Made by a program: the position numbers. A stretch of 64,000 nt of DNA from Escherichia coli (GTDB lineage Bacteria; Pseudomonadota; Gammaproteobacteria; Enterobacterales; Enterobacteriaceae): the NCBI RefSeq assembly GCF_003334405.1, contig NZ_QOWM01000002.1; one strand, written 5' to 3'. Positions within the stretch are counted from its first letter, which is position 1; each line of letters begins with the position of its first letter. Positions 22,101 to 25,100 of the stretch are shown here, piece after piece.

Positions 22101-25100
22101 TACGGTGAGTGAGTGGTTGCCGTAAGGGCCAGTGTTGGCGCGGAAATCCATCTTCACTGCCGTCAGGCGACCATCTTTTTTCGCTCCCAGTTTGACGGTG
22201 ACTTTCGCGACGTGACGAGAGGTGTTAGCAATAAACTCTTCTTCACGGGTGTAGCGGAACAGTACCGGACGCCCGGTCACGCAGGTTGCCCAGGCGCACA
22301 CTTCTTCCAGCAGGATGTCCTGTTTGGAACCAAAACCGCCGCCAACTCGCTCTTTAATGACATGAACTTTATGCTGTTTCATGCCCACGAGGCGCGCGAC
22401 CTGGCGGCGTAAGTGCCATGGTACCTGGGTGGAGGCGTGGATAACCAGACGATCGCCGTCCATACGAGTAAAGCAGATATGTGTTTCAGTCGGGCACTGC
22501 TGCGCTTGCGTTGAGTTATAGGTTCGCTCAATGATCACATCGGCATCGGCAAAGCCTTTGTCCATATCGCCAATATGACCATGAATACTGGCGGCGATAT
22601 TTTTGCGAGGGCGAGAACCGATCGGGAAGTTGATGATCATATGCTCGCCGCGCTGGGCTGCATGGCTGTTATCGTCTTCCAGAGTATCTGGCGCACCAGC
22701 AACATACACCACCGGTTCATCGTGCACGACAGGCGCATCTTCCGCCATTGCTTCGTCGATCGACATTACCGGCTTAAGCACTTCATATTCAACGTCGATG
22801 AGCTTCAGTGCTTCGAGCGCAATTTCTTCACTTTCTGCGACGACCGCAGCAACACGATCGCCGACGTGACGCATTTTCTTGCCGAACATACGGCGGTCAA
22901 GCGGTGACGGTTCCGGTGCGCTCTGACCACCCGGGGTATAGTAGATATCCGGGCAATTCAGGTGAGTAATAACGTGAACGACGCCCGGTAAGGCTTCAGC
23001 TTTGCTGACATCCAGATGAGTAATCAGTGCGTGAGCGTGTGGGCTACGTAACATTTTAATGACGCAGGCGTCAGCCGTTACGCGGTCTTCAACATAGCAG
23101 GGTTTCGCCTGCACCATTTTCGCGGCATCAGTTTTAGGATAATGCTTACCAATGACTTCTAGGTCGTCACGGAAAGTCGGAGCGATATCAATGGTGGCCT
23201 GCGGATTATTTTTACGTGCAACCGCCAGTTCAATGACCTGATAGTATTGCTGCCAGCCAGCATCGCGGCTGAACAAACCAGAAAGCGCGTCGTCGATCTC
23301 TTCGCGGGTAGGTGCGGCGATGCGATCGAGAAGATCGGTGATAATCAGAGCTGCAGCTGGATCGTTATAACCAGACTGCACCACGCCAACATCAACCATT
23401 GCCTGTTGAACCAGACTTAACTCGTTCCATTTGCCCAGAGATTCTGCGGTACGAATATCTGCCTTCTCTAACTGTGCGGCAATAAGCAAGGACGCGTTAA
23501 CGATATTACCGTTAAAGATTATTGCGTCAGAACCGGCAAACCCGAAACCATCATCACTGTTGCGTACAGAGTGCATTCCCATGTTAAACAACAGCTTTTG
23601 CACGTTTTCGCCTGGATTAACGGTTAGCTCCTGAGGCGCGCCATTTAAAGTAAAGTGGATGATCATACGGCTTCCTCCCCAGCCTGTTGGCAGTCGGCAT
23701 ACAGGTCGGCTACCAGAACTCCCGTGATATAGCGTTTATAGGCCACGCTGCCCCGCAAATCTTCCTGCGGGAAAATGGCGTTGGCGACAGCCTGTTCAAG
23801 TGCATTGCCTTCCAGATTTTGTTTTTCGACATCATGCAGACGCAGTGCTTTACTGGCGACGCCATCCAGCGCAATTCGCATACCGTCGTGGTCTGTCATT
23901 GCAACGGCTGCCGTCACGACGGTTAAACCTGCCTGAGAACGGCTAATTTTGCGGGTCGCACAGGTGCGATACGGATCTTTAATGATAATTTCGGTTAGCA
24001 GGCGATCGCATGGGCAGGCCAGGTAGTCCTCGATTGACAGCGTTTCGCCGTTGCCAAAAACCAGTTCAGCATCCAGTGCCAACAGGACGGGAAGCAGCAC
24101 CGACTCTTCCTGGCGGGCGGCGATTTCACCACCAATGGTCGACTGATTACGAACATGGCGTGAGTAAACAAAACCGAGGGCTTCACGCAGCGCTGCAGGA
24201 ATAAATCGCGCATCACGCAGTGGCTGCAAGCGAGACATTGCGCCAATCCGCAGTGCACCGTTATCCCAGTCAACCCAGTCCAGTTCCAGATCCTGTAAGG
24301 AAATGGCAATCTTTTTATCGGTACGGGTTGGTGTAGCATTGAGTTTGCTGCCCCCGGCGAACCAGACGGCTTCATCCTGGTAGCGGCGCTTCAGTTCCAG
24401 CGCCTGTTCGACAGAGTCGGGCCTGAAAAATTGTTCAATCATCTTCTTTCCTTATTTAACCCTCTTCCCTGCGGGAAGAGGGCATCTGTCATTTATGCCA
24501 GCGCATCCATCCGACGCCACATACTGGCAGCGGCTTTTCTGGCTTGTGCATAAATGGAATCGCAATCGAAGTTAAACTGACGGTCTTCATAGACCATCAC
24601 ACCATTGACCATCACGCTGTGAACGCTGCCTGAGCCCATACCGAAAGCGATATGCCCGGCGATATTGTCTGCCAGCAGCGGCGTCGGCGAGTTGTAATCG
24701 CAAATGGTTAAATCAGCTTTGTAACCGGCTTCCAGAAGCCCAAATTTCGCGCCAAAGTTGCGGCTCATCAGTTCGTTACCGTTAGTCAGGGCTTTGGCAA
24801 AACTGTCAGGCCACAGCGGACCACCCGCATCGCGATGTTTAAAGAAGGCAAATTTCATCTCTTCAAACATGTCCGAACCAATGCCGTCCGTTCCCAACGC
24901 CAGATTGCGGATGTCGCTAAGGTGATGGTTGTAGCCGACATGGTTGTTCATGTTTGAACGGGCGTTATGCACCAGGAACGCATCGCGCTGATTGAGTAGG
25001 GTGATGTCATCTTTCGACAAGTACAGCCCATGAGCGACCAGCGTTTTGCTGTCGATGAGATCGAATTGCGCCAGTCGTGCCAGCAGGTCTTTGCCGTACC

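What the first reader, a model, noticed from the sequence alone, without database searches (positions are those of the whole stretch)
24443..24492. Strong intercistronic hairpin between ssnA and ygfM
A 10-bp perfect stem (ccctcttccc tgc gggaagaggg) sits immediately upstream of the ygfM ribosome-binding site, inside the ygfK-ssnA-ygfM-xdhD operon. It could act as an attenuator, an RNA processing site or a stabiliser giving differential expression of the upstream and downstream genes.
Basis: seen in the sequence. Interest (0 to 1): 0.25.

Follow-up and report, generated by a model that had tools for sequence, protein, structure and literature searches.

The report
Conserved stem-loop between ssnA and ygfM
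A strong RNA hairpin really does sit in the 50-base gap between two genes of the E. coli uric-acid-breakdown operon, and evolution has kept it, but it is an ordinary kind of operon "punctuation mark", most likely one that sets the ratio of upstream to downstream gene expression.

Summary
The window is E. coli K-12 and the genes lie on the minus strand. The 50-nt ssnA-ygfM spacer (24443-24492) holds a perfect 10-bp inverted repeat. On the mRNA this is an 11-bp stem, G-CCCUCUUCCC-gca-GGGAAGAGGG-U, of about -20 kcal/mol. It starts 9 nt after the ssnA stop and ends 5 nt before the ygfM Shine-Dalgarno.

It is not chance. E. coli alleles differ by pair-preserving double changes. At least 12 Enterobacterales genera have a strong hairpin at the same position with unrelated sequences.

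It has no U-tract, no Rfam match and no repeat-family copies. Genomes with this junction have no sigma54 motif in the 500 nt before ygfM, so ygfM-xdhD most likely depends on read-through across the hairpin. Where ssnA is the last gene, a canonical U-tract terminator follows it. Where ygfM stands alone, it has its own sigma54-type promoter and no conserved strong hairpin next to the Shine-Dalgarno.

The best reading (about 0.4) is a non-terminating 3'-protective stem-loop, or "valve", separating the coupled pairs ygfK-ssnA and ygfM-xdhD. No RNA-level data exist because the operon is silent in the published 3'-end maps. It is a new member of a known kind, of low to moderate interest.

The parts
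24459..24483 (-). Stem-loop on the mRNA: G-CCCUCUUCCC / loop GCA / GGGAAGAGGG-U. It has 10 Watson-Crick pairs plus a closing G.U pair and folds at about -19.7 kcal/mol on its own.
   Evidence: Pair-preserving variation is shown.
24484..24492 (-). 9-nt single-stranded linker (AUGACAGAU) between the ssnA stop codon and the base of the stem. It is long enough for the hairpin to form while a ribosome sits on the stop codon (inference).
   Evidence: In other genera the core stem starts 6-12 nt after the stop.
24493..24495 (-). ssnA stop codon (UAA).
24446..24453 (-). ygfM Shine-Dalgarno region (AAGGAAAG). It begins 5 nt after the last paired base of the hairpin and is unpaired in the predicted folds.
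24440..24442 (-). ygfM start codon (AUG).
24493..28922 (-). Upstream module ygfK (25824-28922) and ssnA (24493-25821). Stop and start are only 2 nt apart, so the pair is translationally coupled. The enzymes act consecutively (yanthine dearomatisation, then ring cleavage).
   Evidence: Biochemistry from PMC12507026.
20796..24442 (-). Downstream module ygfM (23663-24442) and xdhD (20796-23666), with a 4-nt ATGA overlap. Their products co-purify as the urate-reducing XdhD-YgfM complex.
   Evidence: PMC12507026.
28996..29010 (-). Sigma54-type -24/-12 motif TGGTGCGATTGTTGC, 74 nt upstream of the ygfK ATG. It is the presumed sole promoter for all four genes.
   Evidence: Read from the sequence. There is no such motif in the 500 nt before ygfM in junction genomes. 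The YgeV (sigma54 activator) iModulon includes ygfK, ssnA, ygfM and xdhD (PMC12133099).

Best explanation
The element is an RNA stem-loop on the sigma54-driven polycistronic ygfK-ssnA-ygfM-xdhD transcript. It sits at the only untranslated gap in the operon, between two translationally coupled gene pairs. It lacks a U-tract, so RNA polymerase mostly reads through it, as it most likely must, because no sigma54-type promoter motif precedes ygfM-xdhD. Its likely job is to define and protect a 3' end for the upstream ygfK-ssnA segment. After endonucleolytic cleavage further downstream, or an occasional termination event, the 11-bp GC-rich stem would stall the 3'-5' exonucleases PNPase and RNase II. 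The ygfK-ssnA message would then outlast ygfM-xdhD, and the cofactor-demanding molybdoenzyme XdhD-YgfM would be made at a lower ratio. Shown here: the structure, its conservation with sequence turnover, the absence of a U-tract and the absence of a sigma54-type motif in the 500 nt before ygfM. Inferred: exonuclease blocking, the direction of the expression difference and the physiological rationale.
For: (1) The hairpin is real and stable in local and 270-nt contexts. (2) Structure-level constraint within Escherichia: 7 distinct alleles or species keep 98.7% of cells paired, and stem columns vary about as often as unpaired spacer columns. Two pairs show changes on both sides (A-U/G.U/C-G at the base; C-G/U-A near the top). 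A third runs C-G, U.G, U-A. The covariation score is 0.286 against 0.154 in shuffles, with 0 of 500 reaching it. (3) Position is conserved while sequence turns over. Of 52 ssnA-ygfM junctions from genome contigs, all but five have a hairpin of -12 kcal/mol or stronger; the five are Klebsiella indica, three Buttiauxella and Arsenophonus. The arms are unrelated between genera. Spacer MFE z-scores are -2.3 to -5.6 in most Enterobacterales. Own 5' and 3' halves fold at a mean of -22.3 kcal/mol against -14.1 for halves swapped between lineages. (4) There is no U-tract in E. coli or in most lineages. (5) No junction locus has a full sigma54 -24/-12 motif in the 500 nt before ygfM; one has a near-match with TGGC in place of TTGC. 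By contrast 26 of 28 loci where ygfM is not preceded by ssnA have one 84-138 nt upstream, and these have no conserved strong Shine-Dalgarno-adjacent hairpin. The hairpin therefore belongs to the junction, not to the ygfM ribosome-binding site. (6) Where ssnA is the last gene (Kluyvera intermedia, Klebsiella michiganensis, Cedecea), canonical hairpin-plus-U-tract terminators follow it. The junction hairpin thus looks like an ssnA 3'-end element stripped of its terminating U-run. (7) The class is established. In E. coli, 26 of 34 operon segments with a stabilised 5' gene end at stable, U-tract-less, often conserved hairpins, as in malE-malF (PMC5927463).
Against: There is no RNA-level evidence at all. 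No 3' end is reported at MG1655 positions near 3020523 in the accessible Term-seq tables, but the operon is essentially unexpressed there. There are no half-life or abundance data for ssnA against ygfM. Folding energies and G.U counts do not discriminate the mRNA strand from its complement: 26 G.U pairs against 18, and the sense hairpin is the more stable in 20 spacers against 14. The Aeromonas spacers are not more stable than shuffles. Five lineages lack the hairpin, so it is dispensable. The stem ends only 4-7 nt before the Shine-Dalgarno in most lineages, which fits a translational role equally well. No endonuclease site that would expose the hairpin as a 3' end has been identified. An RN|WUU match (CAA|UUUUU) at ygfM codons 4-5 is only my reading of the sequence.
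Confidence: 0.4

Rival explanations
1. Translation tuning or insulation of ygfM. The hairpin locks the pyrimidine-rich, anti-Shine-Dalgarno-like tract CCCUCUUCCC into a stable local structure just upstream of the ribosome-binding site. This keeps the Shine-Dalgarno and AUG single-stranded and insulated from ssnA coding sequence. Alternatively it shrinks the upstream standby site and sets a defined, lower, de novo initiation rate, uncoupling ygfM translation from ssnA.
For: The stem ends 13-19 nt before the ATG, 4-7 nt before the Shine-Dalgarno, in most Enterobacteriaceae, Edwardsiella, extended Serratia stems and Aeromonas. In the predicted folds the Shine-Dalgarno and AUG are open. The other junctions in the operon are tightly coupled, with a 2-nt gap and a 4-nt overlap. 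In Enterobacteriaceae the 5' arm is consistently CCUC-rich and the 3' arm GGAG-rich.
Against: Where ygfM is promoter-proximal there is no conserved strong hairpin next to its Shine-Dalgarno. The distance to the ATG ranges from 13 to 36 nt (Hafnia 36, Morganella 24). Several lineages add a U-tract (Edwardsiella, Hafnia, B14), which has no role in this model. The Shine-Dalgarno-like arm composition is absent in Morganella, Serratia and Edwardsiella.
Confidence: 0.2
2. Leaky intrinsic terminator or hairpin-dependent pause (true attenuator). A fraction of polymerases terminate, or pause with NusA, just after the stem. This lowers ygfM-xdhD transcription directly.
For: The stem has terminator-like geometry: an 11-bp GC-rich stem with a 3-nt loop, a C-rich 5' arm and a G-rich 3' arm. 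Some lineages do carry U-runs after the equivalent hairpin: B14 has U8, Edwardsiella UUUU and Hafnia UUUGCCCUUUAU. The neighbouring ygeY-hyuA spacer has CCCUCCGG-UUCG-CCGGAGGG followed by UUUUU.
Against: The E. coli tail is UUAAAUAA, with 3 U in 8, and the terminator scan does not list it. Most lineages have 0-3 U. Canonical terminators with U-tracts are used where ssnA really ends an operon, so the missing U-run at the junction looks selected. Established knowledge says U-tract-less hairpins terminate E. coli RNA polymerase poorly.
Confidence: 0.15
3. Vestigial terminator with no present function. It would be a relic of a fusion between a ygfK-ssnA operon and a ygfM-xdhD operon that has lost its U-tract. 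The palindrome would be kept by mutational mechanisms such as quasi-palindrome template switching, or would simply not yet have decayed.
For: Both modules exist as separate operons in other genomes, with a terminator after ssnA and a sigma54 promoter before ygfM. Five lineages have lost the hairpin without losing the junction. No strand asymmetry is detectable.
Against: The hairpin persists with complete sequence turnover across at least 12 genera. Pair-preserving changes pass through G.U intermediates, which template switching would not produce. Stem columns mutate as often as unpaired ones yet stay 98.7% paired.
Confidence: 0.12
4. 5'-protective hairpin of the papBA type. RNase E would cut between the ssnA stop and the stem, leaving ygfM-xdhD mRNA with a 5'-terminal stem-loop that shields it from further RNase E attack. 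This would stabilise the downstream pair.
For: The class is known in E. coli operons (PMC5927463). The hairpin lies close upstream of the ygfM ribosome-binding site.
Against: The 9-nt linker and adjacent ssnA end (GCAUAAAUGACAGAUG) contain no UU and so no RN|WUU motif (reading). The linker sequence is not conserved. U-tracts in some lineages are unexplained.
Confidence: 0.06
5. A DNA-level palindrome that serves as a binding site for a dimeric regulator or a recombination or replication signal.
For: It is a perfect 10-bp inverted repeat. Folding energies are symmetrical between strands.
Against: The arm sequences are completely different between genera while complementarity is kept. This is the signature of a structure, not of a protein recognition sequence. 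G.U pairs are tolerated. The element lies inside a transcription unit with no promoter nearby.
Confidence: 0.02

Closest known systems
Operon-internal 3'-protective stem-loops that drive differential mRNA decay (the malE-malF intercistronic structure; the Dar and Sorek 2018 class, PMC5927463)
   Same: It is a stable hairpin inside a polycistronic transcript with no U-tract. It lies at the boundary between segments and is conserved in related species. It sits just after the stop codon of the gene that would be protected.
   Different: The malE-malF element is a REP repeat, and this one is single-copy. Most of the Dar and Sorek elements lie inside the downstream coding sequence, whereas this one is intergenic. 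No 3' end or half-life difference has been measured here.
Intrinsic (Rho-independent) terminators, including leaky intra-operon ones
   Same: It has a GC-rich 10-11-bp stem and a short loop, with a C-rich 5' arm and a G-rich 3' arm, placed a few nt after a stop codon. Orthologous positions in Edwardsiella, Hafnia and B14 do carry U-runs. Canonical terminators occupy the same place where ssnA is terminal.
   Different: E. coli and most genera have no U-tract. The downstream genes lack their own promoter, so efficient termination would silence them.
papBA / ompA-type 5'-terminal stabilising hairpins
   Same: It is an intercistronic hairpin close upstream of the downstream gene's ribosome-binding site.
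   Different: No RNase E consensus lies upstream of the stem. It is absent where ygfM has its own 5' UTR.
REP/BIME extragenic palindromes
   Same: It is an intergenic GC-rich palindrome in an operon.
   Different: There is one copy per genome, no other copy in the window, and the sequence is unrelated to the REP consensus.

Membership tests
Intrinsic terminator | GC-rich stem-loop of about 5-14 bp with a short loop | tested here: met
   An 11-bp stem with a 3-nt loop at about -20 kcal/mol.
Intrinsic terminator | U-rich tract (at least 5 of 8) immediately 3' of the stem | tested here: not met
   The tail is UUAAAUAA, with 3 U in 8. The hairpin is not among the terminator-like sites. Most orthologous hairpins have 0-3 U.
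Intrinsic terminator | Transcripts end 7-9 nt after the stem in vivo or in vitro | not testable with these tools
   The Term-seq tables held (Adams 2021) list no end here, but the operon is unexpressed in those conditions.
3'-protective operon-internal hairpin (differential decay) | Stable hairpin inside an operon, not followed by a U-tract | tested here: met
   There is no sigma54-type or sigma70-like promoter motif before ygfM.
3'-protective operon-internal hairpin (differential decay) | Evolutionary conservation of the structure | tested here: met
3'-protective operon-internal hairpin (differential decay) | RNA 3' ends map at the hairpin base, and the upstream segment is more stable or abundant than the downstream one | not testable with these tools
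   There are no data for ssnA or ygfM in the PMC5927463 supplements or in PMC12507026.
REP/BIME | Many dispersed copies sharing a consensus sequence | tested here: not met
   One place per genome in 5178 E. coli genomes for the 181-nt query. There is one match in the window at up to 3 mismatches.
papBA-type 5' stabiliser | RNase E site (RN|WUU) in unstructured RNA just upstream of the hairpin | tested here: not met
   GCAUAAAUGACAGAUG contains no UU (reading).
Any curated RNA family (Rfam 15) | Covariance-model match | tested here: not met
   There is no hit at the hairpin even at E up to 10.
Bacterial SECIS | Hairpin downstream of an in-frame UGA | tested here: not met
   The ssnA stop is UAA in E. 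coli and in most genera.

The most novel reading that the evidence does not exclude
The hairpin could be a 'disarmed terminator' that selection keeps as a read-through valve at the fusion point of two formerly independent sigma54 operons. It might work through a hairpin-dependent RNA polymerase pause placed exactly at the ygfM ribosome-binding site. Such a pause would give a new ribosome time to load and re-couple translation to transcription after the only untranslated gap, and would sequester a C-rich, Rho-attracting tract. The same logic might apply to the hairpins between ygeW, ygeX, ygeY and hyuA. That would make hairpin punctuation a programmed stoichiometry device for the whole anaerobic urate pathway.
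Probability: 0.1. Interest if true: 0.45.

Novelty: new member of a known kind. Interest (0 to 1): 0.22.

Why it matters
The ygfK-ssnA-ygfM-xdhD genes were recently shown to encode the first steps of the reductive uric-acid degradation pathway of gut bacteria, and they are being engineered into probiotic strains (PMC12507026). An element that sets the ratio between the YgfK/SsnA enzymes and the cofactor-hungry XdhD-YgfM molybdoenzyme is practical information for anyone refactoring or over-expressing the cluster. It also adds a clean comparative example of a terminator-like hairpin that keeps its stem and lacks a U-tract where read-through is required. It does not open a new biological question.

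Tried and rejected
- **Rfam.** A scan of 20000-30000 at E up to 10 found nothing at the hairpin.
- **Repeat family.** There is a single copy in the window and one place per genome for the 181-nt query.
- **Sigma70 promoter for ygfM.** No promoter-like site lies near 24450-24650 on the minus strand.
- **Sigma54 promoter for ygfM.** No full motif lies in the 500 nt before ygfM in any junction locus.
- **Strand assignment.** Thermodynamics and G.U counts were inconclusive: 26 G.U pairs against 18, and the sense hairpin is the more stable in 20 spacers against 14.
- **Coupling mini-ORF.** A 17-codon ORF (MTDALFPQGRGLNKERR) starts right after the ssnA UAA, runs through the hairpin and stops at the UGA overlapping the ygfM AUG. 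I rejected it. Its AUG is AUA in the divergent E. coli allele (the sequenced examples come from the 90-95% identity band of about 1200 genomes), and spacer lengths in other genera (45-59 nt and more) do not keep the frame.
- **SECIS or recoding.** The stop codon is UAA, not UGA.
- **RNase III site.** The stem is too short (established requirement of about 20 bp).
- **Literature.** Nothing links ssnA or ygfM to terminators, Hfq or 3' ends. The Term-seq and decay supplements either lack the locus or are not held. The RNA-seq of the constitutive strain is available only as a volcano-plot legend.
- **Aeromonas.** A conserved 9-bp GC stem exists there, but the spacers are no more stable than shuffles, so I do not count them as support.
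Full report
**1. What is there**

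The window is E. coli K-12. A 181-nt query around the finding is 100% identical to MG1655 and J53 and is annotated ssnA | ygfM. The operon lies on the minus strand: ygfK 25824-28922, ssnA 24493-25821, ygfM 23663-24442 and xdhD 20796-23666.

The finding's coordinates 24443-24492 are exactly the 50-nt ssnA-ygfM spacer. The spacer holds a perfect 10-bp inverted repeat with a 3-nt gap, 24460-24469 and 24473-24482. On the mRNA it reads UAA-AUGACAGAU-[G CCCUCUUCCC gca GGGAAGAGGG U]-UAAAU-AAGGAAAG-AAG-AUG.

Folding adds a closing G.U pair. The 76-nt context gives -22.6 kcal/mol with z = -3.9. The stem persists in the MFE and centroid of a 270-nt context, and the Shine-Dalgarno and AUG stay open.

It is one of only two perfect hairpin-forming inverted repeats of 10 bp or more in the 64 kb. 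It has no second copy and no Rfam match.

**2. Is it more than chance?**

The hairpin alone would be a weak case, because about 0.5 perfect 10-bp stems are expected somewhere in 64 kb. The comparative data settle it.

Within E. coli, 5178 of 5426 complete genomes carry the locus. A divergent allele class is found in the 90-95% identity band, which holds about 1200 genomes. It reads C CCCUCUUCU uuc/ag AGAAGAGGG G, so two pairs have changed on both sides and the stem is intact.

A gap-free alignment of 7 distinct Escherichia-clade sequences gives these counts:
- 98.7% of cells are paired.
- Pair 28-52 is A-U, G.U or C-G.
- Pair 37-43 is C-G or U-A.
- Pair 38-42 is C-G, U.G or U-A.
- The covariation score is 0.286 against 0.154 in shuffles (0 of 500 reach it), and all slid registers score much worse.

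By my count on alignment A4, stem columns vary about as often (8 of 22) as unpaired spacer columns (9 of 28). The constraint is therefore on pairing, not on sequence.

Across genera, a genome-contig scan with a YgfM profile returned 80 loci, and 52 of them have ssnA directly upstream of ygfM. All but five have a hairpin of -12 kcal/mol or stronger in a 45-96-nt spacer. The five exceptions are Klebsiella indica, three Buttiauxella and Arsenophonus. The arm sequences are unrelated between genera:
- Citrobacter: CCCUCUCC/GGAGAGGG
- Atlantibacter: CGCCUCCCG/CGGGAGGCG
- Yokenella: ACCUCCCCGC/GCGGGGAGGU
- Edwardsiella: AAAACCGCGCGGGC/GCCCGUGCGGUUUU
- Hafnia: ACCGCCCCU/AGGGGCGGU
- Serratia: GCCGCCCCG/CGGGGCGG
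- Morganella: GACCUGCGGC/GCCGCAGGUC, against GGCCUGCGGU/ACCGCAGGCC in M. psychrotolerans, which is two more double changes

Spacer MFE z-scores against dinucleotide shuffles are -2.3 to -5.6 for most Enterobacterales. Own 5' and 3' halves fold at a mean of -22.3 kcal/mol against -14.1 for halves swapped between lineages.

Two caveats apply. The Aeromonas spacers are not better than shuffles. Neither folding energy nor G.U counts distinguish the mRNA strand from its complement.

**3. Anatomy that constrains the mechanism**

(a) There is no U-tract. The E. coli tail is UUAAAUAA, and the terminator scan does not list the hairpin. Only Edwardsiella (UUUU), Hafnia, some Serratia and 'B14' (U8) have U-rich tails.

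(b) This is the only gap in the operon. ygfK and ssnA are 2 nt apart, and ygfM and xdhD overlap by 4 nt. The two pairs are also functional units. YgfK and SsnA perform consecutive steps, and XdhD-YgfM is a complex (PMC12507026).

(c) Promoters show a clean dichotomy. A sigma54-type motif, TGGTGCGATTGTTGC, lies 74 nt before ygfK. No junction locus has a full such motif in the 500 nt before ygfM. In contrast, 26 of 28 loci where ygfM is not preceded by ssnA have one 84-138 nt upstream (Kluyvera, Photobacterium, Vibrio, Shewanella). Those loci have no conserved strong hairpin next to the Shine-Dalgarno. So in E. coli, ygfM-xdhD most likely has to be transcribed through the hairpin, and the hairpin is not an intrinsic part of the ygfM ribosome-binding site.

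(d) Where ssnA is the last gene, canonical terminators with U-tracts follow it (Kluyvera intermedia, Klebsiella michiganensis, Cedecea). One example is CCGGCCUGGCAGGCCGGUUUUUUUU. The junction hairpin thus looks like an ssnA 3'-end element that keeps its stem but not its terminating U-run.

(e) The core stem starts 6-12 nt after the stop codon. I infer that this places it outside a terminating ribosome. It ends 13-24 nt before the ATG.

**4. Mechanism**

The best-supported reading (about 0.4) is a non-terminating, 3'-end-protecting stem-loop of the malE-malF / Dar and Sorek type. In that study, 26 of 34 E. coli operon segments with a stabilised 5' gene ended at stable, U-tract-less and frequently conserved hairpins (PMC5927463). 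Here it would make ygfK-ssnA mRNA outlast ygfM-xdhD.

The rivals are:
- tuning or insulation of ygfM translation initiation (0.2)
- a leaky terminator or pause (0.15)
- a functionless terminator relic (0.12)
- a papBA-like 5' stabiliser (0.06; no RN|WUU site lies upstream of the stem)
- a DNA-level site (0.02; the sequence is not conserved, only the complementarity)

The first three functional models all predict less ygfM-xdhD than ygfK-ssnA. Only wet experiments can separate them.

**5. Direct evidence sought and not found**

- The Adams 2021 Term-seq tables list no 3' end near MG1655 3020523. They list nothing for ygeW, ygeX, ygeY, hyuA, yqeA or xanQ either, and only one xdhD-internal end. 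The cluster is silent in those conditions, so the absence is uninformative.
- The Dar and Sorek supplements do not contain the locus.
- The other Term-seq supplements are not held.
- The RNA-seq from the constitutive strain is available only as a figure legend.
- No paper links ssnA or ygfM to a terminator, hairpin or Hfq.

**6. How ordinary is it?**

Six of the 16 same-strand spacers of 24-90 nt in this window hold a hairpin of -13 kcal/mol or stronger. Three of these are in the sister operon of the same pathway: ygeW-ygeX at -19.8, ygeX-ygeY at -13.0 and ygeY-hyuA at -17.5 with a UUUUU tail. Hairpin punctuation of roughly 50-nt intercistronic gaps is therefore a common design here, and the ssnA-ygfM hairpin is one of the strongest examples.

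**7. Verdict**

This is a real structure maintained by selection, and an undescribed member of a well-known class. It is useful for people engineering the urate pathway but not surprising to a specialist. Interest is 0.22, and the novelty rating is new member of a known kind.

Noticed in passing
window 37473-37529, 36219-36275 and 34955-35006 (minus strand): The sister operon ygeW-ygeX-ygeY-hyuA-yqeA has 47-57-nt spacers. Three of the four hold strong hairpins: GGGCCGAUCAGCUGGUCGGCCC after ygeW (-19.8), UGCUCCCUG..CGGGGAGUA after ygeX (-13.0), and CCCUCCGG-UUCG-CCGGAGGG followed by UUUUU after ygeY (-17.5, terminator-like inside the operon). Hairpin punctuation seems to be a general design of this urate-catabolism cluster.
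   Followed up: partly
window 24439-24492 (minus strand): A 17-codon mini-ORF (MTDALFPQGRGLNKERR) starts immediately after the ssnA UAA, runs through the hairpin and ends at the UGA overlapping the ygfM AUG. It looks like a coupling device but is not conserved. The start is AUA in the divergent E. coli allele, and the frame is not kept in other genera.
   Followed up: yes
window 28996-29010 (minus strand) and 44733-44747 (minus strand): Sigma54-type -24/-12 motifs lie 74 nt upstream of ygfK (TGGTGCGATTGTTGC) and about 100 nt upstream of xdhA (TGGCGTAAATCTTGC). This fits control by the sigma54 activator YgeV encoded in the cluster. Window-wide, the loose pattern is not enriched over chance.
   Followed up: partly
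L014, L015, L017 (Kluyvera) and L048-L086 (Photobacterium, Vibrio, Shewanella); L088 (Kluyvera intermedia ssnA locus): In these genomes ygfM-xdhD is a separate unit with its own sigma54-type promoter 84-138 nt upstream. In Kluyvera, ygfK-ssnA sits elsewhere and ends in a canonical terminator. The four-gene E. coli operon therefore looks like a fusion, or the Kluyvera state a fission, of two modules.
   Followed up: partly
L078 (NZ_JAUFQN010000014.1, 'Flavobacterium paronense' CECT 8460, 7.7-kb contig): The junction sequence is identical to E. coli K-12, including the hairpin. This is almost certainly E. coli contamination in that assembly.
   Followed up: no
L018 ('Citrobacter freundii' strain M-21): Its ssnA-ygfM spacer and hairpin (CGCCUCCCG/CGGGAGGCG) match the Atlantibacter type rather than any Citrobacter type. 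The record may be mislabelled, or the locus may have been transferred horizontally.
   Followed up: no
window 40984-41007: A perfect 24-nt palindrome (ATCCGGCCTGAA/TTCAGGCCGGAT) lies between the convergent genes xdhC and ygeV. It is probably a bidirectional terminator.
   Followed up: no
window 20771-20786 (minus strand): The hairpin GGCCGCUUCGGCGGCC lies 9 nt after the xdhD stop, with tail UGUUUCUCUG. A 164-nt gap then precedes xanQ. This is the likely end of the ygfK-xdhD transcription unit.
   Followed up: no
proteins P0124 (618 aa) and P0104 (385 aa), 49 searches: A few assemblies carry predicted proteins that join SsnA (Amidohydro_1) and YgfM (FAD_binding_5) sequence. This implies rare deletions or frameshifts that remove the spacer and hairpin.
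   Followed up: no
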